Virus record (IMG/VR): IMGVR_UViG_3300035696_001272
Source: a virus
Lineage: Duplodnaviria; Heunggongvirae; Uroviricota; Caudoviricetes
Direction: 5' to 3' (one strand)
Length of the DNA: 64,000 bases
Shown here piece after piece: positions 9,955 through 41,303 of the stretch. Both the position numbers and the translations under genes were made by a program. Position 1 is the first letter of the stretch. Each line of letters opens with the position of its first letter. Under the pieces are notes generated by a model, which saw only the letters and a program-made list of their open reading frames with translations, was not told the DNA's origin and searched no databases.

Positions 9955-10041
9955 GCCATTGTGGCGGAACAGGCAGACGCGCTGGTCTCAAAAATCAGTG
10001 TCCGCAAGGACGTGTGGGTTCGACTCCCACCAATGGCACCA
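9955..10041 (+). tRNA. tRNA-Leu(CAA), type II, encoded CCA
   Basis: Acceptor GCCATTG/CAATGGC; anticodon stem CTGGT/ATCAG with loop CTCAAAA; long variable arm; T-arm GGGTTCGACTCCC; architecture as E. coli tRNA-Leu. Confidence 0.8.
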
Positions 10042-10072
10042 AGATTCTTGATTTATATTATAGGAAGGTCAT

Positions 10073-11473
10073 ATGGCTGATAAAGACGTTCAGGTCTGGA
10101 GAGAAGGCTCTTCAGGCGAACCCAAGTTTCCAGTTAAGTTTGATGTTCTGAAGAAAGCAATTCTTCAAGTAACTGATATCGGTACCAATCGTAATAAGTA
10201 TTATGCCATCGAGTTACATGAGGCTGGTAACAAATACCGAGTCTATACTCATTATGGACGAACGGACGATTTAGATTCTAATCCTGATGCTGGCATTCGT
10301 GAATGTCGTTATCCAGTAAATCTAATTCATGCTGAGAATTTGTATGAAAAGATTTACAAAGAGAAAACTTCTGCTCGTAAAGGTTACAAGGAATTAAATG
10401 TGGCTTCAGCCAAAATTGGTTCCAAACAAACTCTTGGTAAGAGTAGCGGTGAAGTAGACGACAAGACTCTCAAGAAGATGGCTAAAGTTCAGGCAACTGT
10501 AGTCAAAGATGCAGCTCCACCCGTTGCTATTCCTAAAGAGGTTCAGAAGCTAGTTACTCATTTATATGATGAAGCAACTAAGACACTGACTAAAAAGGTT
10601 AATGCTACAATTACCGCTAACGGTATCGAAACTCCTCTTGGTGTTTTGACAATCGGCCAGATCGAAAAGGGCGAAAAGATTCTAGAAGAAATTGCATCTT
10701 CCCTCAAAAAGAAAAACGATGTTCTCTCTAATTTGAGTGGGCAATTCTACACGGTTATTCCCCATAAATTGGGACGTTCTAAAATTGATGTTTTAGATGC
10801 CATTATCAATACAACATCCAAAGTTAAGGAAAAAGAGGATACCTTGCAACTCATGCGAGATATGCTTAACGTAAGCGGTAAAGGCGCAAACGTTTTAGCC
10901 AATCCCAAAGTTGAAAAGCAGTATCTGGCCCTCGGTTGTGAAATTGGTTACCTGGATAAAAACCATGACGATTTCAAGAAGATCAAATCTTCTGTTAAGG
11001 GTTACAGTAACTCTATCAAAAACATTTTCACCATAAAGAGACCTGACGAGCACAAAGCCTTCACCACCAACATTTCTAACCATAAACTCTTGTTCCATGG
11101 TTCTGGTGCCCACAATTGGGTTGGTATTCTGTCTCGTGGCTTGATGTTACCAAAGATGGTCACTAAATTTGGAGTTCATCGTACTGATGAGGGTTGGTTA
11201 GGTCACGGCATTTATTTCGGAGACGTTATCGACACCGCTCTAAATTATGCTTCCAGCGGTAAATTAGACTCTACTTTCGTAGCCATTGCTAAAGTGGCTT
11301 TAGGCAAGATTAAGAAATACAAAGTAGTTACTTATGGTTTAACTTCTCCTCCAAAGGGATACCATAGTTGTCATGGTGACCCAACTGGATATTCAGAGTT
11401 TGATGATCATGAATTTGTTATCTATGATACGAAACAGCAGCGTTTGGAGTATTTACTAGAACTCGACTGGTGA
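10073..11473 (+). CDS. PARP-like ADP-ribosyltransferase (WGR - helical regulatory - catalytic domain)
   Basis: GGAAGG RBS; WGR-like NKYYAIELHEAGNKYRVYTHYGRTD; helical-domain LSGQFYTVIPHKLG; catalytic HGSGAHNWVGILSRGL, GHGIYFGD, HEFVIYD (H-Y-E triad). Confidence 0.7.
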   Translation: MADKDVQVWREGSSGEPKFPVKFDVLKKAILQVTDIGTNRNKYYAIELHEAGNKYRVYTHYGRTDDLDSNPDAGIRECRYPVNLIHAENLYEKIYKEKTSARKGYKELNVASAKIGSKQTLGKSSGEVDDKTLKKMAKVQATVVKDAAPPVAIPKEVQKLVTHLYDEATKTLTKKVNATITANGIETPLGVLTIGQIEKGEKILEEIASSLKKKNDVLSNLSGQFYTVIPHKLGRSKIDVLDAIINTTSKVKEKEDTLQLMRDMLNVSGKGANVLANPKVEKQYLALGCEIGYLDKNHDDFKKIKSSVKGYSNSIKNIFTIKRPDEHKAFTTNISNHKLLFHGSGAHNWVGILSRGLMLPKMVTKFGVHRTDEGWLGHGIYFGDVIDTALNYASSGKLDSTFVAIAKVALGKIKKYKVVTYGLTSPPKGYHSCHGDPTGYSEFDDHEFVIYDTKQQRLEYLLELDW

Positions 11474-11477
11474 AGAC

Positions 11478-11939
11478 ATGAATTTAAGAAATTTGTTGAC
11501 CTTGACAATTCAAAGATTAAGTTTTAACTTGGTTGCTCAACGTCCCGGCCTCGTGGAAGAACTCCGCAAATTAACTATAGAGCCATTCTCAGGAATGAAT
11601 CATGAGTTAAATTGGATGCTTAGAGAGGCTAAAGAGCGAGAGATTGATTGCGATATATTTTTAGCTTATCGCTCTCAAAGTCTAGTCGGTTGGGCACTCT
11701 TGTCAAAAGAAGACACTGATTTCGTCTTTGCCAACTCTTATGAGCCTTTCAGGTCTGAAAATGGTTGGCTCTTTCAAGTGTTCATTGACCCTGACCATCG
11801 GAGACAAGGAATTGCCTCTGAACTGTTAAAGAGAGCCCAAAATCTAATTGGAGACGGCACCCTTTGTATCTGTCCCTGGGACGAAGTAAGTAGAGGGTTT
11901 TACAGTTCACTCAATCTTAGTAATGCGAGACACTTATGA
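11478..11939 (+). CDS. GNAT-family N-acetyltransferase
   Basis: FQVFIDPDHRRQGIASELLKRA motif A. Confidence 0.55.
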   Translation: MNLRNLLTLTIQRLSFNLVAQRPGLVEELRKLTIEPFSGMNHELNWMLREAKEREIDCDIFLAYRSQSLVGWALLSKEDTDFVFANSYEPFRSENGWLFQVFIDPDHRRQGIASELLKRAQNLIGDGTLCICPWDEVSRGFYSSLNLSNARHL

Positions 11940-12511
11940 TATACAACACCATTGAAGAACTGGCCAAATATCTAGAAAGTTATAATTTGCCTTATAGGCA
12001 TCTTGTAGCAACGTCTGGCGGCTTCGATCCCATTCACATCGGGCACTTACGCTGCATCCAGCAATCCAAGCAAAGTCTTCACGATATTTTGGTAGTGATT
12101 GTTAACGGTGATGGATTCCTCACTCGTAAGAAGGGTAAGCCCTTCATGCCTCTTGCTGAGCGTATGGAGATAATTGATGGCCTTCGTGGTGTTGATTTTG
12201 TCACCACTTGGGATGATGGCTCACAGAATGTTATAGGTGCCCTGGAAATTCTAAAACCACATCTTTTCGCTAAGGGTGGTGATAGGTCTTCGGCTGATAA
12301 GGTTCCCGAAGCTGAAGTTTGCGCCAAAATTGGTTGCACGATTTTGTATGGTGTTGGTGGAACTGATAAGGTTCAATCAAGTAGCAACCTTATCAAAAAC
12401 TCAAAAGAAGATAAAATCAAATATCTTGATCCTAATTGTGAACATAATTGGGTATTGGATGGACATAATGCTGGTGAAGGCATTTGCTCCAAGTGTTTGA
12501 AGAGAGAATAA
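11936..12511 (+). CDS. cytidylyltransferase-superfamily nucleotidyltransferase, HldE/RfaE domain II (heptose-1-P adenylyltransferase)-like
   Basis: ATGA overlap; GGFDPIHIGH (HxGH); VNGDGFLTRKKGKPFMPLAERMEIIDGLRGVDFV and FAKGGD...SSSNLIKN parallel E. coli HldE C-domain ([36 protein letters not shown]...VKGGD...STTNIIKK). Confidence 0.55.
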   Translation: MIYNTIEELAKYLESYNLPYRHLVATSGGFDPIHIGHLRCIQQSKQSLHDILVVIVNGDGFLTRKKGKPFMPLAERMEIIDGLRGVDFVTTWDDGSQNVIGALEILKPHLFAKGGDRSSADKVPEAEVCAKIGCTILYGVGGTDKVQSSSNLIKNSKEDKIKYLDPNCEHNWVLDGHNAGEGICSKCLKRE

Positions 12512-12525
12512 AACATAGCAATAAT

Positions 12526-12535
12526 CTGATATATA
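12526..12535 (+). promoter_or_regulatory. extended -10 element CTGATATATA upstream of the tRNA-Leu cluster
   Basis: TGnTATATA 11 nt before the first tRNA; an identical 10-mer recurs at 15488 before the second tRNA cluster. Confidence 0.4.
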
Positions 12536-12546
12536 CAACACACAAT

Positions 12547-12630
12547 GCTACCGTGGTGGAATGGCAGACACGCTGGTCTTAGAAGCCAGTGCCGCGAGGC
12601 GTGAAGGTTCGAGTCCTTTCGGTAGCACCA
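12547..12630 (+). tRNA. tRNA-Leu(UAG), type II, encoded CCA
   Basis: Acceptor GCTACCG/CGGTAGC; anticodon loop CTTAGAA; long variable arm. Confidence 0.8.
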
Positions 12631-12633
12631 ATT

Positions 12634-12720
12634 GTTCATGTGGTGGAATGGCAGACACACTAGTCTCAGAAGCTAGGGTCCGTAAGGACATTGAGGGTTC
12701 AAGTCCCTCCAGGAACACCA
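12634..12720 (+). tRNA. tRNA-Leu(CAG), type II, encoded CCA (A-G mismatch at acceptor pair 5-68)
   Basis: Acceptor GTTCATG/CAGGAAC; anticodon stem CTAGT/GCTAG with loop CTCAGAA. Confidence 0.7.
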
Positions 12721-12726
12721 AAATAT

Positions 12727-12813
12727 CTCATCGTGGTGGAATGGTATACACACTAGGCTGAGAACCTAGGGCTCGAAAGGGCCGTGAGGGTTCGAGTCCC
12801 TCCGATGAGACCA
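12727..12813 (+). tRNA. tRNA-Leu(GAG), type II, encoded CCA
   Basis: Acceptor CTCATCG/CGATGAG; anticodon stem CTAGG/CCTAG with loop CTGAGAA. Confidence 0.75.
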
Positions 12814-12824
12814 AGGAAGTTATT

Positions 12825-13109
12825 ATGTTATTCGATGAATTCTGTGAATGTCGCTGCCATACAAGCGGCAATATCAAGTATATTGTAGCTTGCTGCCATA
12901 CTTGTTCTTATTGTCATAAGAAAGTTAAGACGCATGCTTATGTTGAACATCAAAAGGAATGTTCTGATAAGCACGATCCAAAAATAAATGGTGTGCGACT
13001 AACAGAGATTCTAAGTGCTCTCAAAACACTTGAAGATGCCGATATTGATATCACTAGCATCAGCGCTCAGGTTAGCAAGTTATTTGCCAGCGCATTGAGC
13101 GAAGAATAA
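12825..13109 (+). CDS. hypothetical Cys-rich zinc-finger protein
   Basis: AAGGAAG RBS; CECRCH...CCHTCSYCH. Confidence 0.4.
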   Translation: MLFDEFCECRCHTSGNIKYIVACCHTCSYCHKKVKTHAYVEHQKECSDKHDPKINGVRLTEILSALKTLEDADIDITSISAQVSKLFASALSEE

Positions 13110-14057
13110 TCAGAATCCAGGTCCAAAGTCACCAGGCTTGCGCTGTTGTTGCCGTTGTTGCTGGGGCTGTTGTGCTTGTTGTTGCTTTTGCTTTTGTCTC
13201 GTATTCATGTAGACATTAGCATTATCATCATAGACCATAGCTTTTCCAGTAGCAAACTCAGGTTCACGCTTCAAATACTCAAAGGCTAATTCGTTGCTTA
13301 TGCCCGGATTATCTACGCTTTTCTTATAGATATCTAATGCGGACTGTGTGATGTGGCCTAATGCTCCATCTGTGTTTACTCCCAACATAGCCTGAAACTT
13401 TTTGTCAATTGGCGGATACTTTGACTTATGTTGTTGGGCCACAGGTGCCTGTTGCACTTTTGGAGGCATTATATTCACGTTACTGAACATTGTAGGAATG
13501 CCGCCACCAAACCATGGAGTTGGAGTTTGTTGCGTCTGAGCTTCTTTTACAGACCCACTTTTAACTTTTTTTTTAGAAAGATCGCATCCGATCTTGTGCT
13601 CTAGGTGCTCTAGATCAAGACCTTTGCCGCCACACTCTGGACACCTTGCTTCAGGCATAAAATTGGCGTACTTAGAAAGCAACAAGTCAATTTCCTCAAA
13701 AGAAGACTTTTTAGACTTCTTATCACTCTTACCAATAGATGGATACTTAGAATGAACTTTACGGCTTACCAAAGCTTGTAATCCCTTTAGAGAGCCCTTG
13801 TACCATTCTGGCACAGAGCTATATTGATGAACACGAGCTAAAGCATTACGTGCTTGATCTTCGTCATTAATTGGAAAATGATCTTTTTTATCCTTAGCTG
13901 ATTCAGCTGGTACACAGACAGTTCCTCTATTACGGACCTTAGCCTTTGGATCTAGCTTCTTCTTTTCCTTTTTCTTAGCTGTGGCAAGCAAGGATTCAGT
14001 AGCTAAATGTTCATAATTTACGGCCATTTTAATTAATTGGTCTGGACTGTAGGACAT
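13110..14057 (-). CDS. hypothetical protein (Lys-rich with Gln-rich C-terminal tail; CPECGGKG knuckle)
   Basis: 315 aa minus-strand ORF starting with ATG (MSYSP) between two plus-strand genes. Confidence 0.45.
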   Translation of the reverse strand: MSYSPDQLIKMAVNYEHLATESLLATAKKKEKKKLDPKAKVRNRGTVCVPAESAKDKKDHFPINDEDQARNALARVHQYSSVPEWYKGSLKGLQALVSRKVHSKYPSIGKSDKKSKKSSFEEIDLLLSKYANFMPEARCPECGGKGLDLEHLEHKIGCDLSKKKVKSGSVKEAQTQQTPTPWFGGGIPTMFSNVNIMPPKVQQAPVAQQHKSKYPPIDKKFQAMLGVNTDGALGHITQSALDIYKKSVDNPGISNELAFEYLKREPEFATGKAMVYDDNANVYMNTRQKQKQQQAQQPQQQRQQQRKPGDFGPGF

Positions 14058-14102
14058 TAAAAACCTCGATATATTCTGTATACTAATAATTAGGCAATAT
14101 TA

Positions 14103-14636
14103 TTGCTACATTTATGGTGTTCATTCGTGGTTGCATTTAATAACGAAGAAAGTTTGTTAGCTTGGGCAGCGGGCCTGTTCGATGGTGAAGGAACCATTTA
14201 TTCTGCTAATGGTAGGGTTAGAGCTTCTGTGCATATGACTGACCTTGATGTATTAGAAACTTTTCATTCTAATTTCGGTGGAGCCATACATAAATGTAAG
14301 AAGCAAAAAGAACATCATAAGGAATCTTGGCGATGGTCATTACAAGCCTCTAGTGAGGCCGTGAATTTTCTGAAAAAGATTTTACCGTTTTTACATAATC
14401 GAAGGACAAAGAGAGCAAAAGAAGCGATAGAATACTATAACATAGTGGAACAGCAACAAAAAGACAAACAAGGTAAAGTATTAGAGTTAAGAAGTAAAAT
14501 TGCAAAAATGAGTAAAAGTGGTATGACGCACAAGGACATATCAATATTATTCAATGTAGATAGAAGTTATGTAACACGTATTTTGAATGGAAAATATGGT
14601 GATGTGAGGGAGCTGGTTGAACCCGGTACTCTGTGA
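14103..14636 (+). CDS. LAGLIDADG-type homing endonuclease with C-terminal HTH (non-ATG start; exact 5' end uncertain)
   Basis: LLAWAAGLFDGEGTIYS LAGLIDADG-like motif; C-terminal GMTHKDISILFNVDRSYVTRIL HTH; the 3' end overlaps tRNA-His. Confidence 0.5.
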   Translation: MLHLWCSFVVAFNNEESLLAWAAGLFDGEGTIYSANGRVRASVHMTDLDVLETFHSNFGGAIHKCKKQKEHHKESWRWSLQASSEAVNFLKKILPFLHNRRTKRAKEAIEYYNIVEQQQKDKQGKVLELRSKIAKMSKSGMTHKDISILFNVDRSYVTRILNGKYGDVRELVEPGTL

Positions 14637-14675
14637 AAGTATCTCTGACGGGATCGTAACCCGTACATCACCCCA
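14598..14675 (+). tRNA. tRNA-His(GUG) with encoded G-1 and CCA
   Basis: G-1 then acceptor GTGATGT/ACATCAC; discriminator C; anticodon stem GTACT/AGTAT with loop CTGTGAA; T-arm ACGGGATCGTAACCCGT. Confidence 0.75.
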
Positions 14676-14678
14676 ACT

Positions 14679-14752
14679 GGTCTGTTCGTCTAATGGTAGG
14701 ACAAAGCGCTTTCAATGCTTGAACAGGAGATCGATACTCCTACAGATCACCA
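14679..14752 (+). tRNA. tRNA-Glu(UUC), encoded CCA
   Basis: Acceptor GGTCTGT/ACAGATC; D-arm GTCTAATGGTAGGAC; anticodon stem AAGCG/TGCTT with loop CTTTCAA. Confidence 0.75.
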
Positions 14753-14974
14753 ATGAAAAAACTTGCTTTCTTAGTAGTACTTGGATTTATCTTTGTTGCT
14801 TGTCATACAAATATTACTGCAGCCAATGCGCCAAAGGGATCTATTTTATGCGGTAATGATTCGGGATGTCCAGATGATTACTACTGTGGATTTGCTGGAG
14901 TAGATCAGCCAGCCACTTGTATTTATTCTCCTGGTTATCAAATAATGGAGTGGGAAAGCCACACAGGTCGTTAA
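14753..14974 (+). CDS. small secreted Cys-rich protein, probable lipoprotein
   Basis: MKKLAFLVVLGFIFVAC signal peptide with lipobox-like VAC; 8 Cys in 73 aa. Confidence 0.45.
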   Translation: MKKLAFLVVLGFIFVACHTNITAANAPKGSILCGNDSGCPDDYYCGFAGVDQPATCIYSPGYQIMEWESHTGR

Positions 14975-14979
14975 TAAAC

Positions 14980-15055
14980 GGCCCCATCATCTAATGGTTT
15001 AGGATGAGAGACCTTCACTCTCTTCATATGGGTTCGAATCCCATTGGGGTCGCCA
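14980..15055 (+). tRNA. tRNA-Glu(UUC)-like with a noncanonical anticodon loop CCTTCAC (C at position 33), encoded CCA
   Basis: Acceptor GGCCCCA/TGGGGTC; Glu-type D-arm ATCTAATGGTTTAGGAT; anticodon stem AGAGA/TCTCT; T-arm ATGGGTTCGAATCCCAT. The alternative register gives loop ACCTTCA (Lys CUU), also with C33. Confidence 0.55.
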
Positions 15056-15463
15056 ATGAAGTATTTTTTATTTTTAAGTCTATTGTTAGCTTTTAGTTGT
15101 ACACAAAATACTCCTGCTGTTCCTTTATTGGAAACTTCACCAGTTCCCGTACAAGTTGCTTTAGGTACCGATGGTAAATTATATTGGCGCTGTCAGTTAC
15201 AAGGATTGAATCAAGACTCAGTGCGAGTCAGTTGTAATTTTCACAACCAATCTATCGATACTCTTAATAGCTGCATTAGAGTTTCCTATTACGATAATGC
15301 AGATGGCCATCTAGTTGCTCAAAGTCACCAAATTTGTTCTGGTTCTTTGACACCTGGCACTTCTAGTGATAAAGTAGCAATATTTATGGAAAATAGCCGC
15401 AGGGCTTTACAAAACTGCGGGGAATCGTTAAATTTGTGTGTGATGTTGGCGGGCGATCATTAA
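15056..15463 (+). CDS. secreted protein or lipoprotein
   Basis: MKYFLFLSLLLAFSCTQ signal peptide; 135 aa; several Cys. Confidence 0.45.
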   Translation: MKYFLFLSLLLAFSCTQNTPAVPLLETSPVPVQVALGTDGKLYWRCQLQGLNQDSVRVSCNFHNQSIDTLNSCIRVSYYDNADGHLVAQSHQICSGSLTPGTSSDKVAIFMENSRRALQNCGESLNLCVMLAGDH

Positions 15464-15487
15464 AGTAATAAATCGCCTACTAATAAG

Positions 15488-15497
15488 CTGATATATA
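15488..15497 (+). promoter_or_regulatory. extended -10 element CTGATATATA upstream of the second tRNA cluster
   Basis: Identical 10-mer to 12526; 9 nt before tRNA-Glu(CUC). Confidence 0.4.
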
Positions 15498-15506
15498 GGA
15501 TACACT

Positions 15507-15581
15507 GGCCCATTCGTCTAACGGTTAGGACGGCAGCCTCTCAAGTTGTTAATACGGGTTCGATTCCCGTATGGGTCGCCA
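15507..15581 (+). tRNA. tRNA-Glu(CUC), encoded CCA
   Basis: Acceptor GGCCCAT/ATGGGTC; D-arm GTCTAACGGTTAGGAC; anticodon stem GCAGC/GTTGT with loop CTCTCAA. Confidence 0.7.
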
Positions 15582-15592
15582 AGTAAGTTTAT

Positions 15593-15668
15593 GCGCCTGT
15601 AGCTCAATGGATAGAGCATTCGGTTTCTACCCGACAGGTTGGGGGTTCAAGTCCCTCCAGGCGTGCCA
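15593..15668 (+). tRNA. tRNA-Arg(UCU), encoded CCA
   Basis: Acceptor GCGCCTG/CAGGCGT; D-arm GCTCAATGGATAGAGC; loop TTTCTAC; 27-43 mismatch. Confidence 0.7.
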
Positions 15669-15679
15669 AGTTAATTTAT

Positions 15680-15755
15680 GTGCCTGTAGCTCAATGGATA
15701 GAGCGTTGGTCTACGAAACCAAAGGTTGTGAGTTCAACCCTCACCAGGCATACCA
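15680..15755 (+). tRNA. tRNA-Arg(ACG), encoded CCA
   Basis: Acceptor GTGCCTG/CAGGCAT; anticodon stem TTGGT/ACCAA with loop CTACGAA. Confidence 0.8.
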
Positions 15756-15757
15756 AA

Positions 15758-16204
15758 ATGAAAATCTGCACGAAGTGCAAATTCGATTATCCTGCACCAT
15801 TAGAAGAATATTTTAGTAAGAAGTCTTGCACTAAAGATGGGTTCCAATACCAATGCAAAAAGTGTTGGACAGATGCTCATAAAGAGCATTACAAAGAAAA
15901 TAAGACCTACTATAAAAAGAAAGCTCGCAAACATAACGCAGAGTATAGATTAAGAAATCTCCAATACATGGTAGATTATCTTAAAGAACATTCTTGTGTG
16001 GATTGCGGAGAAAATAATCCAATCTTACTAGATTTTGATCATGTCAGAGGCACTAAGATTACCAATGTTAGTAGAATGGTGTCATTGAATCCGAATTTGG
16101 AAGTAATCAAAGCAGAAATTGAAAAATGTGAAGTGCGCTGTGTAAAATGTCACAGACTAAAAACAGCCATTCAATTAGGGTGGTATAAAGGCATTAAGTT
16201 GTAA
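15758..16204 (+). CDS. HNH homing endonuclease
   Basis: Start taken at the ATG just after the tRNA CCA. Cys pairs CTKCKF...CKKC; HNH core CVDCGENNPILLDFDHVRGTK...CVKCHRLKT. Confidence 0.6.
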   Translation: MKICTKCKFDYPAPLEEYFSKKSCTKDGFQYQCKKCWTDAHKEHYKENKTYYKKKARKHNAEYRLRNLQYMVDYLKEHSCVDCGENNPILLDFDHVRGTKITNVSRMVSLNPNLEVIKAEIEKCEVRCVKCHRLKTAIQLGWYKGIKL

Positions 16205-16207
16205 TAC

Positions 16208-16283
16208 GTTCCCATAACTCAGCGAACAGAGTGCCACGCTTCGAACGTGGAAGTCGCAGGTTTGAATCCTGCTGGGAATGCCA
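16208..16283 (+). tRNA. tRNA-Arg(UCG), encoded CCA
   Basis: Acceptor GTTCCCA/TGGGAAT; anticodon stem CCACG/CGTGG with loop CTTCGAA. Confidence 0.8.
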
Positions 16284-16354
16284 AGTAGCTCCGTAAGGAG
16301 CTATTTTTATTTGTGCTGGTATATGTACTTCGGAATTTCAATTCAGGAGTCATT

Positions 16355-17950: not shown

Positions 17951-19144
17951 ATGATATTCCAAGAGTTGGTTGATCGAGGTTTGGTAAAGCAAACAACCAA
18001 TGCAGAGAAGATCCGTCAACTTCTAGACAATCAGAAAATCGCTTTTTACATTGGATTCGATCCGACAGCAGACAGTCTGCATGTCGGGCATTTGCTCCAA
18101 TTGGTAACTGCTAGGCGATTGGTGGATGCAGGTCATACGGCAGTTATGCTAATTGGCGGTTCAACTGCATTGATTGGAGACCCCACTGGAAAAACTGAGA
18201 TGCGCAAAATGCTATCTCGCTCCGACATCAATGTCAACAGTGAGGCCATTGAAAAGCAAATCAAACAAATCGTTGGCCCCTCTGTTCATATGGTTAATAA
18301 TCTTCTGTGGCATGATGGTGCAAATTTCTTGCAAGTCTTGCGTGAGCTAGGTCCATTTTTCTCCGTCAATAACATGCTCCGAGCCGAGTGCTTCAAAAGC
18401 CGCATGGAGAACGGTCTATCATTTTTAGAATTCAATTACATGATTCTGCAAGCAGAAGATTTTCGCATACTCAATCTTGAGTTTGGTGAGAATTGTGTAC
18501 TGCAAATCGGTGGAGACGATCAGTGGTCAAACATTTTGGCCGGGATTGAACTTATCCACAAGAAAGAAAAACGAGAAGCGTTTGGACTGACACTTCCGCT
18601 CTTAGTCAATTCAGATGGAACCAAGATGGGGAAAACTGAAAAAGGGGCGGTGTGGCTTGATCCGAACAAAACTACTCCATTCGATTTCTTCCAATTCTGG
18701 AGAAATCTTCCAGACGATCAAGCTAGAAAATGTTTTGACCTTTTTGCAGATTGTTCGCCAAACGGTCTTAACATTAATGAATTGAAGAAAGTTTTAGCCT
18801 TTCATCTTACTACATTAGTTCATAGCCAAGATGCAGCAGATCGAGCGCTCGAACAGGCAGAAGCCTTGTTCGAGAAACGAGACACTTCTACATTGGAAAC
18901 TACTCCAATTGCAGATGGAACTCATATCCTTGACCTGGTAATTAAATGTGGCTTCGCCAAGTCGCGAACTGAAGCCAGAAATTTGATTACCAATAAAGGA
19001 ATCACCATAAACGAAGAAGTGCAAACAAACCCTACTATTAATATTTCCAAATCTATATTTGGGAATGAGCTTATAGTTAAAAAGGGTAAAAAGCACTTCT
19101 GCCGATTGCTCATTGAGGATACATGCCAAGACCATCATTCGTAA
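17951..19144 (+). CDS. tyrS: tyrosyl-tRNA synthetase (bacterial type, with C-terminal S4-like domain)
   Basis: GFDPTADSLHVGHL (HIGH), KMGKTEKGAVWLDPNKTTPFDFFQFW (KMSKS region) parallel E. coli TyrS ([26 protein letters not shown]). Confidence 0.85.
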   Translation: MIFQELVDRGLVKQTTNAEKIRQLLDNQKIAFYIGFDPTADSLHVGHLLQLVTARRLVDAGHTAVMLIGGSTALIGDPTGKTEMRKMLSRSDINVNSEAIEKQIKQIVGPSVHMVNNLLWHDGANFLQVLRELGPFFSVNNMLRAECFKSRMENGLSFLEFNYMILQAEDFRILNLEFGENCVLQIGGDDQWSNILAGIELIHKKEKREAFGLTLPLLVNSDGTKMGKTEKGAVWLDPNKTTPFDFFQFWRNLPDDQARKCFDLFADCSPNGLNINELKKVLAFHLTTLVHSQDAADRALEQAEALFEKRDTSTLETTPIADGTHILDLVIKCGFAKSRTEARNLITNKGITINEEVQTNPTINISKSIFGNELIVKKGKKHFCRLLIEDTCQDHHS

Positions 19145-25397: not shown

Positions 25398-25667
25398 ATG
25401 ATTTGTGAAGTCTTCCAAGTTAACGATAATCCTGATCATCTACTATTGGTAACACTGGACGGTGAAGTTATCAATGGATTCTGGCATATCAATAATGCTG
25501 ATAAGTATGGTCTTAAGATAACCATGTTGGGCTACATTGAGTGGCCTTGGAAAAATGAATCTGATAATGAGGATTACAATATCACTCTTGCTAGGTTCAG
25601 AGATGGCGAAAGAGCGGCAGTGGAAACGTGTCCTACCTGTGGTCATAAAGAATGGAAAAGTAAATGA
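25398..25667 (+). CDS. hypothetical protein with C-terminal CPTCGH knuckle
   Basis: 89 aa. Confidence 0.35.
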   Translation: MICEVFQVNDNPDHLLLVTLDGEVINGFWHINNADKYGLKITMLGYIEWPWKNESDNEDYNITLARFRDGERAAVETCPTCGHKEWKSK

Positions 25668-26812
25668 GCAAGCATCCTGTATTAGATTTGATTGAGAAGA
25701 GAAGCCCACATCTTGGGTGGATACAGGAAGGAACTGTCTTGTTGGTTCGACATGGTTCTCATGCTTATGGTACCAACACAGCCACCTCAGATGAAGACTT
25801 CAAAGGCATTGCTATTCCTCCTAGAAAGTATTTCCTAGGAACCATGCATCGTTTTGAGCAAGCTGAATTGAAAGCTCCAGATCCAGATGCTGTTATCTAT
25901 GACATTCGTAAATTCTTCAATCTGGCTGCCGATTGCAACCCGAACATCATCGAAGTGTTGCATACTGATCCTTCGGACCACTTCATTGTGGACCCAATCG
26001 GTGAAGTCATCTTGGAACACAAGAACGAATTCTTGTCTAAGAAAATCAAGCATACCTTCTTGGGTTACTCCGTGGCTCAATTGAAGAGAATCAAGACTCA
26101 CAAGCGCTGGATTATGAATCCACCTAGCGCCCCTCCTACAAGAGCTAGCTTGGGATTGCCAGAACAGACTTTGATTCCAAACGATCAGCTGATGGCTGCC
26201 ACAGCTGAAGTGCAAAAGGAATTGGATCGATTCCAGTTCGATTTCATGGAAGGTTTGGAAGAGTCTCAAAAGATTGGGATTCGTACTACTGTTTCTGAAA
26301 TGCTGGCGGAACTCAAAATCACTGCCGATCAGCATTGGGAAGCTGCGGCTCGCAAGATTGGCCTGACTGATAACTTTATTGAAATCATGCAGCGCGAGCG
26401 CCAGTACACCAGCGCTAAACGTGAGTGGGATCAGTATCAGAACTGGAAAAAGACTCGTAACCCAACTCGTTCCGCCTTGGAAGAGAAGTTTGGTTACGAT
26501 ACTAAACATGCCTATCACTTGGTCCGACTCATTCGTATGTGTCGAGAGATCTTGACCACAGGTGTTGTTCAAGTGAAAAGACCTGACCGAGAAGAACTGT
26601 TGGCTATTCGTAACGGAGCTTGGACTTATGATCAGTTGATTGAATTCGCTGATCGTGAGGACAAAGCCCTTGCCGAGTTGTATAACACTTCTACAGCTTT
26701 GCCTAAGACGCCCGACAAAGAAAAGCTGGATCAACTTTGTATTCGATTGGTGCAAATGGCCTTGTCGAAATACTCGTGGTACAACGTCCGTAAACTATTT
26801 GGAGGCTCTTGA
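25664..26812 (+). CDS. Pol-beta-superfamily nucleotidyltransferase (PF10127 'predicted nucleotidyltransferase'-like; RNA-repair associated)
   Basis: ATGA overlap; LVRHGSHAYGTNTATSDEDFKGIAI = hG[GS]-x10-DxD NTase core; 382 aa. Confidence 0.5.
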   Translation: MSKHPVLDLIEKRSPHLGWIQEGTVLLVRHGSHAYGTNTATSDEDFKGIAIPPRKYFLGTMHRFEQAELKAPDPDAVIYDIRKFFNLAADCNPNIIEVLHTDPSDHFIVDPIGEVILEHKNEFLSKKIKHTFLGYSVAQLKRIKTHKRWIMNPPSAPPTRASLGLPEQTLIPNDQLMAATAEVQKELDRFQFDFMEGLEESQKIGIRTTVSEMLAELKITADQHWEAAARKIGLTDNFIEIMQRERQYTSAKREWDQYQNWKKTRNPTRSALEEKFGYDTKHAYHLVRLIRMCREILTTGVVQVKRPDREELLAIRNGAWTYDQLIEFADREDKALAELYNTSTALPKTPDKEKLDQLCIRLVQMALSKYSWYNVRKLFGGS

Positions 26813-32992: not shown

Positions 32993-33294
32993 TGATTCTA
33001 GCTAAGCCGGAAAAACCACAAAAGAAGATAACTCAAAGACAAACTGCGACTTACAACTTTGATTGGGTTAGTAAGAAAGTTTCTTGGGATGGTTTTCTAG
33101 ATTGGGCTAAGGAAACTATTCCGGCTGGCGCTAAAGACGTTACGCTGGAACTAATAGAAGATTGGCAATATGATGATTGCATTACATATCTAGAATTATC
33201 TTGGGATGAGATAGTTACTAATCCTAATTATGATAAAGAGATGAAGAAGTACGAAAGGAAACTTGCAAAGTGGAAAAAAGAATGCCAAGAGTAA
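32989..33294 (+). CDS. hypothetical protein
   Basis: 101 aa. Confidence 0.35.
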   Translation: MMILAKPEKPQKKITQRQTATYNFDWVSKKVSWDGFLDWAKETIPAGAKDVTLELIEDWQYDDCITYLELSWDEIVTNPNYDKEMKKYERKLAKWKKECQE

Positions 33295-34217
33295 CCATGG
33301 TGATGGGCTATCCTGCTAGTGGGAAAAGCACTTTAACCAAAACGATAGTTAAGCACGGGGCCATCTCGCTTAATCGTGATACAGAAGGTGGCACTATTGC
33401 CGACCTTTTGCCAAAGATGGAAGCACTGCTCCAAGATCGCAAAGATGTAGTTCTAGACAATCTGTTTCCTACCGTTGAAGTTCGTAAACCATTTATCGAG
33501 ATGGCAGCCAAACACAAAGCTGAGATTGCTTGTATTCTTATGGATACCAGTATCGAAGACGCTCAGTTCAATGTTGTTCAGCGAGCTATTGGCTTAATTG
33601 GTAAGTTTCCAACTCCTGAAGAGATTAAAAAGGCCAAACACACCAATATTTTCCCGCCATTGGTTCTATTCAAGTATAAGAAGGATTTTCAAAAGCCAAC
33701 AACGGAAGAGGGATTCAAGTTCGTAACGACTGAAAAGTTTGTTCGTCAGGACAATCCTAACTTCACTAATAAGGCTCTCATTGTAGATTATGACGGCACT
33801 CTCAGAGAATGTATCAATGGTAACGATAAGTATCCTGTCAATAAGGATCAGATTGAGATTAAACCGAATCGTACAGAAGTTCTCAAGTCGTATAAAGACA
33901 AAGGATATATCTTGTTGGGCGCCTCCAATCAAAGCGGCATTGCCAAAGGCGAGGTTAGTGAGCAAGTTGTTACTGAATTGTTTGAGTACACCAATAAACA
34001 ATTAGGCATTGATATAGAGTACCGCTTCTGCTCTCATCAATCAGCGCCCATCAGTTGCTATTGTCGCAAACCGATGAATGGAATTGGCGTTGAATTCATA
34101 CTGAAACACAAACTAGATCGCAAACAGTGTATTATGGTTGGCGACATGACAACTGACAAGACGTTTGCTACTCGCTGCGGCTTCCAGTATGTTGATCAAG
34201 CGGAGTTCTTTAAATGA
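33282..34217 (+). CDS. polynucleotide 5'-kinase / 3'-phosphatase (T4 Pnk-like), copy 1
   Basis: P-loop MGYPASGKSTL; C-terminal HAD phosphatase LIVDYDGTL...GDMTTDK. The start is ambiguous (GTG 33270, ATG 33282 or 33297). Confidence 0.7.
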   Translation: MPRVTMVMGYPASGKSTLTKTIVKHGAISLNRDTEGGTIADLLPKMEALLQDRKDVVLDNLFPTVEVRKPFIEMAAKHKAEIACILMDTSIEDAQFNVVQRAIGLIGKFPTPEEIKKAKHTNIFPPLVLFKYKKDFQKPTTEEGFKFVTTEKFVRQDNPNFTNKALIVDYDGTLRECINGNDKYPVNKDQIEIKPNRTEVLKSYKDKGYILLGASNQSGIAKGEVSEQVVTELFEYTNKQLGIDIEYRFCSHQSAPISCYCRKPMNGIGVEFILKHKLDRKQCIMVGDMTTDKTFATRCGFQYVDQAEFFK

Positions 34218-34483
34218 AAGAATCAATTAAGACAGAGTGTGGCTCTTGTGGTGGCACCGGTATTTATTGTGGCTTTGCGGAGCCAGAGGGTACTGGTGTA
34301 ATTTGTTTTAACTGTGACGGCAGTGGTTGTCGAATCATTGAGTACGTTCCCTTTACTAGCCGAAAGGAACGTAGGAATGTCAGCAAAGTGATGCGCTCTC
34401 GTGGCACATTTATTGGAACGGGTGTGGGGCCGGTGGGCGACTACATAACTTATGAAGATTTTCTAAAGGGTAAGAAGCCATGA
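34214..34483 (+). CDS. zinc-ribbon protein
   Basis: CGSCGGTG...CFNCDGSGC. Confidence 0.35.
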   Translation: MKESIKTECGSCGGTGIYCGFAEPEGTGVICFNCDGSGCRIIEYVPFTSRKERRNVSKVMRSRGTFIGTGVGPVGDYITYEDFLKGKKP

Positions 34484-34782: not shown

Positions 34783-34803
34783 AAGTTTTAATGAGGTAAT
34801 GTT

Positions 34804-38288: not shown

Positions 38289-38292
38289 AATT

Positions 38293-39540: not shown

Positions 39541-39642
39541 TATATAGGGAATTTGGAGGGGTTGACGCCACCTAAAACTGGCGTTACCCTTCCAGTGACC
39601 TTCCACGGTCCTAACCTTTTTATTTTCTTTATGGAGGTAATC

Positions 39643-40092: not shown

Positions 40093-40096
40093 GTTG

Positions 40097-40139: not shown

Positions 40140-40164
40140 CTATTAATTACGATATATACTATGT

Positions 40165-40878: not shown

Positions 40879-40879
40879 G

Positions 40880-41290: not shown

Positions 41291-41303
41291 TATAGGAATC
41301 AAG

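What the first reader, a model, noticed from the sequence alone, without database searches (positions are those of the whole stretch)
9955..16283. tRNA island with a narrow isoacceptor repertoire (4 Leu, 3 Arg, 3 Glu-type, 1 His), all with encoded CCA, interleaved with homing endonucleases and lipoproteins
Eleven tRNAs lie in 6.3 kb and cover only four amino acids:
- Leu: CAA, UAG, CAG, GAG;
- Arg: UCU, ACG, UCG;
- Glu: UUC, CUC, and a UUC-like variant;
- His: GUG.

That is near-complete decoding for Leu and Arg but nothing else. The pattern fits codon-usage compensation poorly. It fits better as replacement of tRNAs targeted by host anticodon nucleases or tRNA-depleting defences (colicin-D-like for Arg, colicin-E5/PrrC-like families for His).

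The island is punctuated by a LAGLIDADG gene whose 3' end overlaps tRNA-His, a free-standing HNH gene wedged between two tRNA-Arg genes, and two signal-peptide/lipobox proteins. Both multi-tRNA clusters are preceded by the identical extended -10 element CTGATATATA.
Basis: partly seen in the sequence, partly recalled or inferred. Interest (0 to 1): 0.6.

Follow-up and report, generated by a model that had tools for sequence, protein, structure and literature searches.

The report
Conserved tRNA array of a huge phage
This is a real, evolutionarily conserved block of eleven transfer-RNA genes in a very large bacteriophage genome, invaded by two selfish nuclease genes; it is one of several such blocks, so its apparent restriction to four amino acids comes from where the window ends.

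Summary
All eleven tRNA genes sit at the stated coordinates, and all encode CCA. Ten pass Rfam. tRNA-His fails Rfam, but compensatory changes in four orthologues support it. The LAGLIDADG gene, the HNH gene, the two lipobox ORFs and the repeated CTGATATATA element are also real.

The same ordered array (Leu CAA/UAG/CAG/GAG, His, Glu UUC/CUC, Arg UCU/ACG/UCG, upstream of TyrRS) recurs in at least nine related IMG/VR or metagenome contigs of 64-481 kb. It is therefore ancestral to a huge-phage clade.

The "narrow repertoire" does not hold for the genome. The same genome carries three tRNA-Thr, two amber suppressors, Arg-CCU and a tmRNA within 8 kb past the window end. Relatives add Lys, Tyr, Pro and Asn clusters.

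The tRNA set does not track the phage's own codon preferences. The window also encodes two PNKP-like proteins, three RNA-ligase-like proteins, RlaP, a Thg1-like protein and TyrRS.

Best reading: one module of a general tRNA supply-and-repair kit. A link to tRNA-cleaving host defences is plausible. Specificity for colicin D, colicin E5 or PrrC-type nucleases is unsupported.

The homing endonucleases are mobile passengers. This is a new member of a known kind.

The parts
9955..10041 (+). tRNA-Leu(CAA), class II, A73, encoded CCA
   Evidence: ARAGORN. Rfam 54.7 bits. Orthologues occupy the same position in L013, L014, L018, L341 and L342.
12520..12535 (+). Promoter-like motif AATAATCTGATATATA (extended -10 type), 11 nt upstream of Leu-UAG
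   Evidence: The same motif sits at the same place in L013, L014, L017, L018 and L341.
12547..12630 (+). tRNA-Leu(UAG)
   Evidence: Rfam 57.0 bits. 92% identical to the L014 orthologue.
12634..12720 (+). tRNA-Leu(CAG)
   Evidence: Rfam 50.6 bits. 94% identical to the L018 orthologue.
12727..12813 (+). tRNA-Leu(GAG), with a C1-G72 first pair
   Evidence: Rfam 58.0 bits. 94% identical to the L013 orthologue.
12825..13109 (+). 94-aa Cys/His-rich ORF with a Shine-Dalgarno sequence; function unknown
   Evidence: No Pfam or PHROG match.
13110..14057 (-). 315-aa conserved ORF of unknown function on the opposite strand, between the Leu and His blocks
   Evidence: tblastn homologues lie in the same slot in L013, L014, L017 and L018, plus a hit in the more distant L012.
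14063..14113 (+). Conserved promoter-like element and leader (tcGATATATT...tatactaataattaggcaatattattgctacattta)
   Evidence: The same leader precedes the first tRNA-His in L013, L014, L018 and L216. It precedes the LAGLIDADG gene in L341, L342 and L343.
14127..14636 (+). Free-standing LAGLIDADG-type homing endonuclease with a C-terminal HTH. Its last 38 nt run into tRNA-His, and its TGA stop overlaps the GTG anticodon.
   Evidence: - Motif LAGLFDGEG.
- Pfam LAGLIDADG_3 at 3.6e-4, sub-threshold.
- phrog_5046 at 1e-29.
- Homologues carry PF14528.
- Homologues occupy the same slot in L341-L343 and are absent from L013, L014, L017 and L018.
14598..14675 (+). tRNA-His(GUG) with encoded G-1 opposite C73. 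Non-canonical: G8 and T-loop AUCGUAA.
   Evidence: - ARAGORN only.
- Missed by Rfam.
- 7 of 23 pairs show compensatory changes and none is broken across 4 orthologues.
- 25 distinct phage tRNA-His genes share this T-arm.
14679..14752 (+). tRNA-Glu(UUC), copy 1, with T-loop AUCGAUA (A54) and A73
   Evidence: Rfam 52.6 bits. Same type as Glu-UUC in L013, L015 and L017.
14753..14974 (+). 73-aa putative lipoprotein (signal peptide, lipobox FVAC, four further Cys). Its ATG directly follows the CCA.
   Evidence: Read. Homologues follow Glu-UUC in L013 and L015. A similar ORF is present in L018.
14980..15055 (+). tRNA-Glu(UUC), copy 2, with anticodon loop CCUUCAC (C33 in place of the near-universal U33)
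   Evidence: Rfam 53.4 bits. 88-89% identical to Glu-UUC of L014 and L018, whose loop is UUUUCAC. Absent between the two lipoprotein genes of L015.
15056..15463 (+). 135-aa putative lipoprotein (lipobox AFSC). Its ATG directly follows the CCA.
   Evidence: 42% identical homologue in L015.
15482..15497 (+). Promoter-like motif AATAAGCTGATATATA, 9 nt upstream of Glu-CUC
   Evidence: Conserved upstream of Glu-CUC in L013, L014, L015, L018, L216, L342 and L343.
15507..15581 (+). tRNA-Glu(CUC)
   Evidence: Rfam 59.1 bits. 92-93% identical to orthologues.
15593..15668 (+). tRNA-Arg(UCU)
   Evidence: Rfam 65.7 bits.
15680..15755 (+). tRNA-Arg(ACG)
   Evidence: Rfam 68.4 bits.
15758..16204 (+). Free-standing HNH homing endonuclease that exactly fills the Arg-ACG/Arg-UCG spacer
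   Evidence: - phrog_2255 at 1.7e-28.
- The spacer is only 4-5 nt in L013 and L018.
- Homologues sit in other tRNA spacers in L018 and L216, and in the same spacer in L341.
- 26 of 80 family members lie within 1.5 kb of tRNA genes.
16208..16283 (+). tRNA-Arg(UCG)
   Evidence: Rfam 61.3 bits.
16283..16312 (+). Intrinsic-terminator-like hairpin followed by a T-run, closing the array
   Evidence: An equivalent hairpin follows Arg-UCG in L013, L014, L015 and L018.
17951..19144 (+). Context: bacterial-type tyrosyl-tRNA synthetase, the conserved anchor downstream of the array
   Evidence: Pfam tRNA-synt_1b plus SYY_C-terminal. About 70% identical in all clade relatives.
25664..26812 (+). Context: RlaP-family nucleotidyltransferase (RNA-repair associated)
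   Evidence: PF10127. phrog_388 at 1.4e-68.
33270..35799 (+). Context: two polynucleotide kinase/phosphatase-like genes (33270-34217 and 34804-35799)
   Evidence: Pfam AAA_33 plus PNK3P for the first; AAA_33 plus HAD_PNKP at 2.2e-46 for the second.
36843..42892 (+). Context: three RNA-ligase-like genes, with other ORFs between them.
- 36843-37604: PF09414.
- 38293-39540: T4 Rnl1-like.
- 42227-42892: phrog_24030.
63436..64000 (+). Context: Thg1-like gene, cut by the window end, which precedes the next tRNA cluster
   Evidence: PF04446 on L007 10604-11398. L007 is identical to the window over 11,168 nt.

Best explanation
**What it is**
- The island is the largest of several tRNA gene clusters in a huge bacteriophage. 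Contigs carrying its proteins reach 308 kb, and relatives reach 481 kb.
- Within each cluster the genes are grouped by amino acid.
- It is an ancestral, syntenic array in this clade.

**Expression (inferred from sequence)**
- Extended -10-type promoters of the form AATAA-N3-4-GATATAWW lie about 10 nt upstream of the first tRNA of each block.
- Transcription gives polycistronic precursors that end at a hairpin terminator after Arg-UCG.
- Processing yields tRNAs that already carry CCA.

**Function (inferred)**
- The array gives the phage its own near-complete decoders for Leu, His, Glu and Arg.
- It would act together with:
  - the neighbouring Thr, suppressor and Arg-CCU cluster;
  - tmRNA, TyrRS, a PheRS-like enzyme and IF3;
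  - Thg1-like enzymes;
  - a PNKP and RNA-ligase repair kit.
- Together these would keep phage translation running when the host tRNA pool is insufficient, degraded or attacked.

**The embedded genes**
- The LAGLIDADG and HNH genes are selfish homing endonucleases that live in tRNA spacers.
- They probably drive the mosaic exchange of tRNA genes seen between relatives. A role in copy-number changes is suggested only by analogy with SegB.
- The small lipoprotein genes are long-term residents of the operon. Their function is unknown.

**Shown versus inferred**
- Shown: gene content, conservation, mobility of the endonuclease genes, and the motifs.
- Inferred: expression, processing and physiological role.
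For: **The genes are real**
- 11 tRNAs, all with encoded CCA.
- tRNA-His is supported by covariation.

**The array is conserved**
- The same anticodon order lies upstream of TyrRS in L013, L014, L015, L017, L018, L216/L242, L341, L342 and L343. Contigs are 64-481 kb.
- Individual tRNA sequences diverge to 61-94% identity with mosaic affinities. The anticodon set and order, rather than the sequence, appear to be what is kept.

**There are more tRNAs in the same genome and in relatives**
- Thr x3, suppressor CUA x2, Arg-CCU and a tmRNA in the same genome. This cluster is conserved in relatives.
- Lys, Tyr, Pro and Asn clusters in relatives.

**Regulatory motifs**
- The promoter motif precedes 23 of 79 cluster-first tRNAs, against a background of 0.0046 per 35-nt window.
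- The terminator is conserved.

**Translation and repair genes nearby**
-.

**The set is not tuned to codon bias**
-.

**The endonuclease genes are mobile**
- HNH lies in three different spacers, and the spacer is 4-5 nt where it is absent.
- LAGLIDADG is present or absent at one fixed slot.

**Published precedent**
- Huge phages carry up to 67 tRNAs, up to 15 aminoacyl-tRNA synthetases, IF3 and genes for ligating cleaved tRNAs (PMC7162821).
Against: - No expression, processing or aminoacylation data exist.
- The host is unknown, so a host-versus-phage codon comparison was impossible.
- Only about 84 kb of a genome of at least 308 kb was seen, so the full repertoire is unknown.
- No virion hallmark gene lies in the sampled region. 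The viral assignment rests on three things:
  - the relatives are IMG/VR entries;
  - several ORFs match PHROG families;
  - the gene organisation looks phage-like (my own judgement).
- Some members may be impaired: Glu-UUC copy 2 has C33, and tRNA-His has G8 and A54.
- 'Supply and repair' is broad. It does not explain why these amino acids are grouped here.
Confidence: 0.65

Rival explanations
1. The island specifically replaces the isoacceptors destroyed by particular host anticodon nucleases: colicin-D-like for Arg, colicin-E5 or PrrC-like for His, and unknown enzymes for Leu and Glu. The phage copies would be resistant variants.
For: - A healing-and-sealing RNA repair kit in the same window shows tRNA breakage matters to this phage.
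- Arg genes are the most expanded in relatives, at up to 5 copies, and they neighbour the HNH gene.
- Several tRNAs carry unusual features: C33 in Glu-UUC copy 2, and A54 T-loops in His and Glu-UUC copy 1.
- The mechanism is established elsewhere (PMC10264068, PMC11464382, PMC11555353, PMC13096335).
Against: - The repertoire is not narrow. Thr, suppressor, Arg-CCU, Lys, Tyr, Pro and Asn tRNAs occur in the genome or clade.
- The Arg and His anticodon loops look canonical by my own reading: CUACGAA, CUUCGAA and CUGUGAA.
- Colicin E5 also cuts Tyr, Asn and Asp tRNAs, and PrrC cuts Lys (established knowledge). None of these is in the island.
- The host and its nucleases are unknown.
Confidence: 0.15
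2. Codon-usage compensation. A 40% G+C phage growing in a host with different codon usage supplies the tRNAs the host has too little of.
For: - The phage's GC3 is 0.37.
- Arg-UCU (AGA, RSCU 2.07), Glu-UUC (GAA, 1.33), Leu-CAA (UUG, 1.48) and Arg-ACG (CGU, 1.41) decode its favoured codons.
- The best bacterial matches to its isocitrate lyase include many high-G+C Myxococcota and Chloroflexota. This is a weak hint.
Against: - The set also holds Leu-CAG, Leu-GAG, Glu-CUC and Arg-UCG, which read codons the phage uses least: CUG 0.52, CUC 0.52, GAG 0.67 and CGG 0.11.
- It lacks Leu-UAA for UUA, the joint commonest Leu codon at RSCU 1.50.
- The anticodon set stays constant across relatives.
Confidence: 0.15
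3. The tRNA genes are mostly decaying cargo or landing pads for homing endonucleases, kept by gene drive rather than by any function in translation.
For: - Two homing endonuclease genes lie in 2.2 kb.
- The HNH family is strongly tRNA-associated: 26 of 80 loci.
- tRNA affinities are mosaic.
- One copy carries C33, and tRNA-His fails the Rfam model.
Against: - Ten of 11 score 50-68 bits against the tRNA model.
- Stems change by compensatory substitution.
- The anticodon set and order are conserved across genomes whose TyrRS is only about 70% identical.
- The array keeps the same anticodon order in the nine sampled relatives whether or not either endonuclease gene is present. L013 and L014 (sampled from Leu-CAA to TyrRS) and L017 (from Leu-UAG) lack both.
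Confidence: 0.04

Closest known systems
Phage T4/T6 tRNA gene cluster with the free-standing homing endonuclease SegB (PMC2330249, PMC13096335)
   Same: - A co-oriented phage tRNA cluster with a free-standing homing endonuclease gene between the tRNA genes.
- The endonuclease is polymorphic between related phages and is linked to exchange of the tRNA region. In T6 it amplifies a tRNA gene to escape a tRNA-cleaving defence.
   Different: - SegB is a GIY-YIG enzyme. Here the enzymes are HNH and LAGLIDADG.
- The array is larger and sorted by amino acid.
- Cleavage activity, homing and amplification were not tested here.
Translation gene sets of huge phages (Al-Shayeb et al. 2020, PMC7162821)
   Same: - Genome above 200 kb.
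- Many tRNAs that, in that study, differ from the host's.
- Aminoacyl-tRNA synthetases, IF3, and genes for ligating cleaved tRNAs.
- The proposed role is redirecting or sustaining translation.
   Different: - I could not place this genome in any of that paper's named clades.
- The paper passages I read do not mention a conserved anticodon order or resident homing endonucleases.
Phage tRNAs as counter-defence against tRNA-cleaving immunity (van den Berg 2023, PMC10264068; PARIS and T5 tRNA-Lys, PMC11464382; retron Ec78 and tRNA-Tyr, PMC11555353)
   Same: - Phage-encoded isoacceptors would replace host tRNAs cut by defence nucleases.
- Non-canonical features in phage tRNAs are a hallmark of this role.
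   Different: - Those cases involve one or a few identified target tRNAs and a known nuclease.
- Here no nuclease or host is known, and the set covers almost whole codon families.
T4 Pnkp plus Rnl1 repair of PrrC-cleaved tRNA-Lys (established knowledge; cited in PMC10264068)
   Same: The window encodes kinase/phosphatase (HAD_PNKP) and T4-Rnl1-like ligase domains 17-23 kb from the island.
   Different: - The matches are distant: TIGR02308 scores 68 bits against a cut-off of 242.
- The genes are present in several copies.
- Activity and substrate are unknown.
Mitochondrial 'tRNA punctuation' of polycistronic transcripts (established knowledge)
   Same: ORFs begin 0-2 nt after a tRNA 3' end, so excising the tRNA could leave an mRNA that starts at its AUG.
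   Different: This is an analogy only. No processing data exist, and bacterial 3' processing of CCA-encoding precursors works differently.

Membership tests
Phage tRNA gene cluster | Several adjacent genes that fold as cloverleaf tRNAs and score with independent predictors | tested here: met
   ARAGORN finds 11 of 11. Rfam finds 10 of 11 at 50.6-68.4 bits. tRNA-His is supported by 7 compensatory pairs.
Phage tRNA gene cluster | Located in a bacteriophage genome | tested here: inconclusive
   - Relatives are IMG/VR viral contigs of 64-481 kb.
- Several ORFs match PHROG families.
- Some genes have Shine-Dalgarno sequences.
- No capsid or terminase gene lies in the 84 kb sampled.
Anti-anticodon-nuclease replacement tRNAs | The host encodes a tRNase that cuts the same isoacceptors | not testable with these tools
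   The host is unidentified. Isocitrate lyase matches are spread over many phyla at 64-70% identity.
Anti-anticodon-nuclease replacement tRNAs | The phage copies differ from canonical tRNAs at the nuclease's recognition or cleavage site | tested here: inconclusive
   - Only Glu-UUC copy 2 has an altered anticodon loop (C32, C33).
- The Arg, His and Leu loops are ordinary by my own reading against E. coli tRNAs.
- A54 T-loops occur in His and Glu-UUC copy 1. Their meaning is unknown.
Anti-anticodon-nuclease replacement tRNAs | The repertoire is restricted to the targeted isoacceptors | tested here: not met
   Thr, suppressor and Arg-CCU tRNAs plus a tmRNA occur in the same genome. Lys, Tyr, Pro and Asn tRNAs occur in relatives.
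Codon-compensation tRNA set | The tRNAs match codons the phage uses more than the host does | not testable with these tools
   No host genome is available.
Codon-compensation tRNA set | The tRNAs match the phage's own preferred codons | tested here: not met
   - Decoders exist for CUG (RSCU 0.52) and CGG (0.11).
- None exists for UUA (1.50) in the 84 kb sampled.
Free-standing homing endonuclease (HNH) | HNH nuclease domain | tested here: met
   - phrog_2255 at 1.7e-28 and phrog_3106 at 5.9e-19.
- The CxxC...DH...N...CxxCH motif can be read in the sequence.
- There is no Pfam hit.
Free-standing homing endonuclease (HNH) | Presence/absence polymorphism at a precise site among related genomes | tested here: met
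   - The Arg-ACG/Arg-UCG spacer is 4-5 nt in L013 and L018, against 452 nt in the window.
- Homologues lie in the Glu-UUC/Glu-CUC spacer (L018), the Arg-UCU/Arg-ACG spacer (L216) and the same spacer as the window (L341, 64% identity).
Free-standing homing endonuclease (HNH and LAGLIDADG) | Cleaves the endonuclease-less allele and is copied in by repair | not testable with these tools
   This needs a biochemical assay or a co-infection cross.
LAGLIDADG homing endonuclease | LAGLIDADG domain | tested here: inconclusive
   - Pfam LAGLIDADG_3 scores 21.2 bits against a cut-off of 22.5.
- The motif LAGLFDGEG is readable.
- 4 of 17 homologues carry PF14528.
- The AlphaFold single-sequence model was too poor to use, with pLDDT 57.
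SegB (GIY-YIG) family | GIY-YIG catalytic domain | tested here: not met
   Neither endonuclease gave a GIY-YIG match in Pfam, PHROGs or NCBIfam. The resemblance to SegB is functional, not family membership.
Bacterial lipoprotein | N-terminal signal peptide followed by a lipobox cysteine | tested here: met
   - MKKLAFLVVLGFIFVAC and MKYFLFLSLLLAFSC are read directly from the sequence.
- The Cys is conserved in the L013, L015 and L018 homologues.
- No dedicated signal-peptide predictor was available.
T4-type tRNA healing and sealing (Pnkp plus Rnl1) | Kinase/phosphatase and Rnl1-type ligase domains | tested here: met
   - HAD_PNKP at 2.2e-46 plus AAA_33.
- RNA_lig_T4_1 at 4.4e-15.
- TIGR02308 scores 68 bits, below its equivalog cut-off.

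The most novel reading that the evidence does not exclude
The island may work as a 'tRNA-punctuated' operon.

- In the window, both lipoprotein genes start at the base directly after a tRNA's CCA, and the HNH gene starts 2 nt after one.
- Across the clade, 16 of 60 tRNA-to-ORF junctions have an ATG 0-4 nt after the tRNA 3' end. The figure for random positions is 7%, and no junction falls at 5-9 nt.
- Excising the tRNA could therefore release leaderless mRNAs, as in mitochondria.
- Expression of these genes would then be tied to tRNA maturation, in a phage that also encodes its own IF3.
- Separately, the clade's non-canonical tRNAs could form a pool that host tRNA nucleases or modification enzymes handle differently. 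These include the A54 T-loop tRNA-His class, found in 25 distinct phage genes.
Probability: 0.2. Interest if true: 0.65.

Novelty: new member of a known kind. Interest (0 to 1): 0.4.

Why it matters
**Main lesson**
- A tRNA repertoire read from a fixed window can mislead. The four-amino-acid pattern comes from arrays that are sorted by amino acid and cut by the window edge.

**What the locus offers**
- A clean comparative system. The anticodon order stays fixed across a huge-phage clade while individual tRNA genes are swapped, duplicated and invaded by two kinds of homing endonuclease.
- An HNH family that, like SegB, lives preferentially between tRNA genes in many unrelated phages.
- tRNA supply genes next to an unusually rich RNA-repair set, which makes it a good candidate for testing experimentally how large phages withstand tRNA-targeting immunity.

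Tried and rejected
- **Megablast of the island against GenBank phages:** no match. No annotated close relative exists, so I could not do a whole-genome tRNA census.
- **PARP-like protein as a query for relatives:** only one distant locus, L012, with a single tRNA.
- **Whole-genome tRNA census:** impossible, because only 10 kb either side of a gene can be fetched. I sampled about 84 kb of this genome and scattered parts of relatives.
- **Host inference from isocitrate lyase:** matches of 64-70% identity across many phyla, so not informative.
- **Origin of isoacceptor families by recent tandem duplication:**
  - Identities within an amino acid are 53-78%, against 46-65% between amino acids.
  - tRNAs flanking HNH genes are 52-77% identical.
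  - This suggests old duplications in places (Arg-ACG and Arg-UCG in L341 are 77% identical) but it is not demonstrated.
- **TAG read as a sense codon:** coding density does not rise (0.894 to 0.890). TAG is avoided in this region rather than recoded.
- **Lack of a Shine-Dalgarno sequence as something special to the CCA-ATG ORFs:** rejected, because only about 35-40% of all genes have one.
- **AlphaFold model of the LAGLIDADG protein:** pLDDT 57, so I did not use it for a fold search.
- **LAGLIDADG scan of IMG/VR:** nothing found. Homologues came from the protein database instead.
- **Alternative reading of Glu-UUC copy 2 as a Lys-CUU tRNA in a shifted register:** rejected on alignment to E. 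coli tRNA-Glu (recalled from memory) and to its L014 and L018 orthologues.
- **Weak Rfam matches in the island (YrlA, SpF41 and others):** all far below their gathering scores and overlapping tRNAs, so treated as chance.

Full report
**1.

ARAGORN finds exactly eleven tRNA genes in the 64-kb window. All eleven end in an encoded CCA. The Rfam tRNA covariance model independently recovers ten of them at 50.6-68.4 bits.

tRNA-His (14599-14675) is the exception. Rfam does not report it at E<=1 over the island, or at E<=10 over a 111-nt stretch. It has G8, an unusual D-arm and a T-loop AUCGUAA (A54/U58). It also has the bacterial tRNA-His hallmark, a G at -1 (14598) opposite C73.

Orthologues of this tRNA-His exist in four relatives of the clade. 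A consensus fold of the window's copy with three of them gives a cloverleaf in which all 23 pairs are kept, and 7 of them change on both sides. It is therefore a real but non-canonical tRNA.

The 'UUC-like variant' (14980-15055) has the anticodon loop CCUUCAC, with C33 in place of the near-universal U33. Its orthologues in two relatives have UUUUCAC.

**2. The embedded genes and signals are also as described**

- **LAGLIDADG ORF (14127-14636).**
  - It carries the motif LAGLFDGEG and a C-terminal HTH.
  - It scores just under the Pfam LAGLIDADG_3 cut-off and matches phrog_5046 at 1e-29.
  - Several of its homologues carry PF14528.
  - Its last 38 nt overlap tRNA-His, and its TGA stop overlaps the GTG anticodon.
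- **HNH ORF (15758-16204).**
  - It has no Pfam hit but matches phrog_2255 'HNH endonuclease' at 1.7e-28.
  - It fills the Arg-ACG/Arg-UCG spacer to within 2-3 nt at each end.
- **Two small ORFs (14753-14974 and 15056-15463).** Each has a signal peptide and a lipobox cysteine, and each has homologues in relatives.
- **CTGATATATA.** It occurs three times exactly, against 0.24 expected. Two copies lie 11 and 9 nt upstream of Leu-UAG and Glu-CUC.
- **Terminator.** A hairpin followed by a T-run lies directly after Arg-UCG.

**3. What genome this is**

The window is identical to metagenome contigs from several samples. A near-identical (99%) copy of one of its proteins lies on a contig of 307,844 bp. 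There is no close relative among GenBank phages.

The TyrRS just downstream of the island has roughly 70%-identical homologues on IMG/VR viral contigs of 64-481 kb. Several window ORFs match PHROG families, and some genes have Shine-Dalgarno sequences.

I take it to be a huge bacteriophage. One caveat applies: no virion gene lies in the 84 kb I could see.

**4. The array is ancestral**

The relatives fetched through TyrRS, HNH or LAGLIDADG homologues are L013, L014, L015, L017, L018, L216/L242, L341, L342 and L343. They carry the same order, wholly or for the part of the array that was sampled, apart from local swaps within the Leu block and a few absent or extra members:

Leu CAA, UAG, CAG, GAG; His (x1-2); Glu UUC; Glu CUC; Arg UCU (x1-2); Arg ACG (x1-2); Arg UCG; then TyrRS.

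Also conserved:
- the GNAT gene upstream of the Leu block;
- the 315-aa ORF on the opposite strand;
- a lipoprotein gene after Glu-UUC;
- the terminator hairpin after Arg-UCG.

The promoter-like motif AATA[AT]-N2-5-[GT][AGT]TATA[ATG][ATG] precedes 23 of 79 cluster-first tRNAs. The background rate is 0.0046 per 35-nt window. Those 23 sites are half of all 47 occurrences in 358 kb.

The tRNA sequences themselves vary. Each window tRNA has its closest orthologue in a different relative:

| Window tRNA | Closest orthologue | Identity |
|---|---|---|
| Leu-UAG | L014 | 92% |
| Leu-CAG | L018 | 94% |
| Leu-GAG | L013 | 94% |
| His | L017 | 90% |
| Arg-UCG | L018 | 75% |

So the anticodon set and order appear to be maintained, while the genes are exchanged.

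**5. The 'narrow repertoire' comes from the window edge**

Locus L007 overlaps the last 11,168 nt of the window with no mismatch. It continues 9.4 kb beyond the window end. That stretch holds:
- Thr-UGU, Thr-GGU and Thr-CGU;
- a tmRNA at 116.8 bits;
- two suppressor tRNAs with anticodon CUA;
- Arg-CCU.

The same cluster, just downstream of a Thg1-like gene, is conserved in the clade. The 267-kb relative also has a cluster of four tRNA-Lys about 70 kb upstream of its Leu-Arg array. Another relative has Tyr, Pro and Asn tRNAs.

The genome therefore has at least 17 tRNAs plus a tmRNA in about 84 kb, arranged in blocks sorted by amino acid.

**6. Codon usage**

In 86 ORFs (19,021 codons), the relative synonymous codon usage is:

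| Amino acid | Codon values |
|---|---|
| Leu | UUA 1.50, UUG 1.48, CUU 1.06, CUA 0.91, CUC 0.52, CUG 0.52 |
| Arg | AGA 2.07, CGU 1.41, CGC 0.84, AGG 0.80, CGA 0.78, CGG 0.11 |
| Glu | GAA 1.33 |
| His | CAU 1.36 |

The island supplies decoders for the rarest codons (CUG, CUC, CGG). It has none for UUA, the joint commonest Leu codon. The set is close to whole-family coverage and is not tuned to phage preference. The decisive comparison needs the host, which I could not identify.

**7. Context that bears on function**

Within the window and its 10-kb flanks the phage encodes:
- TyrRS;
- a mitochondrial-type monomeric PheRS-like enzyme (TIGR00469, 274 bits, above its cut-off);
- IF3 and a PTH2-like protein;
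- two Thg1-like proteins;
- an RNase T-family exonuclease;
- RlaP;
- two PNKP-like proteins (HAD_PNKP at 2.2e-46);
- three RNA-ligase-like proteins, one of them T4 Rnl1-like.

In T4, Pnkp and Rnl1 repair tRNA-Lys cut by the PrrC anticodon nuclease (established knowledge; cited in PMC10264068). [quoted passage not shown]

The island thus fits a general kit for supplying, charging and repairing tRNA. The repair genes are indirect evidence that tRNA damage matters to this phage. They do not point to particular nucleases or isoacceptors.

**8. The homing endonucleases are mobile passengers**

*HNH*
- Where it is absent (L013, L018), Arg-ACG and Arg-UCG lie 4-5 nt apart.
- A 64%-identical orthologue sits in the same spacer in L341.
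- A 57%-identical one sits between Arg-UCU and Arg-ACG in L216/L242.
- A 44%-identical one sits between Glu-UUC and Glu-CUC in L018.
- Of the 80 best family members in IMG/VR, 26 have tRNA genes within 1.5 kb. They are typically wedged between two tRNAs, for example Lys|HNH|Lys, Met|HNH|Met and Ile|HNH|Ile.
- This is the behaviour described for the GIY-YIG enzyme SegB in T4 and T6 (PMC2330249, PMC13096335), shown here by a different nuclease family.

*LAGLIDADG*
- The gene always occupies one slot. It lies after a conserved leader (tatactaataatt...) and directly upstream of tRNA-His in the window, L341, L342 and L343.
- Relatives without it have a second tRNA-His in that slot (L013, L014, L018, L216).
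- The overlap with tRNA-His varies: 38 nt in the window and L343, none in L341 and L342. It looks incidental.

**9. Things seen that may be new but are unproven**

- In the window, three ORFs start 0-2 nt after a tRNA's CCA. In the clade, 16 of 60 tRNA-to-ORF junctions have an ATG at 0-4 nt, against 7% at random positions. No junction falls at 5-9 nt. This could simply reflect genome compaction, since only about 35-40% of genes have a Shine-Dalgarno sequence. It could also mean that tRNA excision creates leaderless mRNAs.
- The T-arm GGGAUCG(A/U)AACCC with C73-CCA occurs in 25 distinct phage tRNA-His genes, 24 of them with G-1. This suggests a widespread phage class of A54-type tRNA-His.

**10. 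Verdict**

Its central argument fails, because the repertoire is not narrow and no specific nuclease is implicated.

The thing itself is a new member of a known kind: a tRNA array of a huge phage with resident homing endonucleases.

Noticed in passing
L007 16050-16123 and 16242-16315 (same genome; equivalent to window 68882-68955 and 69074-69147); stop-codon counts over window 1-64000: Two suppressor tRNAs with anticodon CUA lie just past the window end and are conserved in the clade (x1-2). TAG ends only 1 of 86 window ORFs and about 4 of 248 ORFs pooled over the clade. Reading TAG as sense does not raise coding density. This suggests TAG read-through or recoding elsewhere, perhaps in late genes.
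   Followed up: partly
L007 13470-13821 (same genome, equivalent to window 66302-66653): A phage-encoded tmRNA (Rfam 116.8 bits) that ARAGORN missed in this locus. Relatives carry tmRNAs with tags such as ANDNAFAMAA.
   Followed up: partly
window 25664-26812, 33270-35799, 36843-39540, 42227-42892: A dense RNA-repair region: RlaP, two PNKP-like proteins and three RNA-ligase-like proteins, including one like T4 Rnl1.
   Followed up: partly
L004 997-2064 (same genome, about 8 kb upstream of the window start): A monomeric mitochondrial-type PheRS-like gene (TIGR00469 pheS_mito, 274 bits, above its cut-off; tRNA-synt_2d plus FDX-ACB). It is conserved at 71-79% identity in 12 related viral contigs.
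   Followed up: partly
window 7198-9947: Adjacent isocitrate lyase and malate synthase genes, a complete glyoxylate shunt, in a phage genome directly upstream of tRNA-Leu(CAA).
   Followed up: partly
window 10073-11473, 1758-2189, 11936-12511; L004 7821-9323: Two WGR-PARP_reg-PARP proteins, a NADAR-domain protein and a cytidylyl/adenylyl-transferase-like protein, which hint at NAD/ADP-ribose metabolism. The PARP and transferase genes lie between Leu-CAA and Leu-UAG here. In L013 and L018 that interval holds only the GNAT gene, while L014 also has the transferase.
   Followed up: no
loci L296-L340 (IMG/VR); window 14598-14675: The T-arm GGGAUCG(A/U)AACCC (A54 in place of T54, like eukaryotic initiator tRNA) followed by C73-CCA occurs in 25 distinct phage tRNA-His genes from unrelated contigs. 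The window's Glu-UUC copy 1 and several relatives' Glu tRNAs also have A54 T-loops.
   Followed up: partly
L013 6345-6421, L014 4190-4266; L014 7090-7173, L018 7207-7290, L017 8046-8130: In relatives, the 'Leu-CAG' slot holds a 77-nt tRNA without the long variable arm. Extra 'Arg-ACG' genes of 84-85 nt have a long variable arm. The structural class does not match the anticodon.
   Followed up: no
window 14752/14753, 15055/15056, 15755/15758; clade loci: ORFs start 0-4 nt after a tRNA's CCA at 16 of 60 junctions. Many other ORFs have TGATATATA 7-10 nt upstream of their ATG. Both patterns are compatible with leaderless mRNAs.
   Followed up: partly
window 63436-64000 and L004 1-721: Two Thg1-like genes flank the region, although tRNA-His has its G-1 encoded in the genome. 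This fits 5'-end tRNA repair better than G-1 addition.
   Followed up: no
window 44818-61869: A run of genes on the - strand for sugar-nucleotide modification and glycosyltransferases: GDP-mannose dehydratase, epimerases, a DegT aminotransferase, methyltransferases and glycosyltransferases. It coincides with the reversal of cumulative GC skew near 45 kb.
   Followed up: no
window 39537-39546: The third exact CTGATATATA lies at the 3' end of the Rnl1-like gene (its first four bases overlap the gene's stop) and 6 nt upstream of the TTG start of the next ORF, 39553-40092.
   Followed up: no
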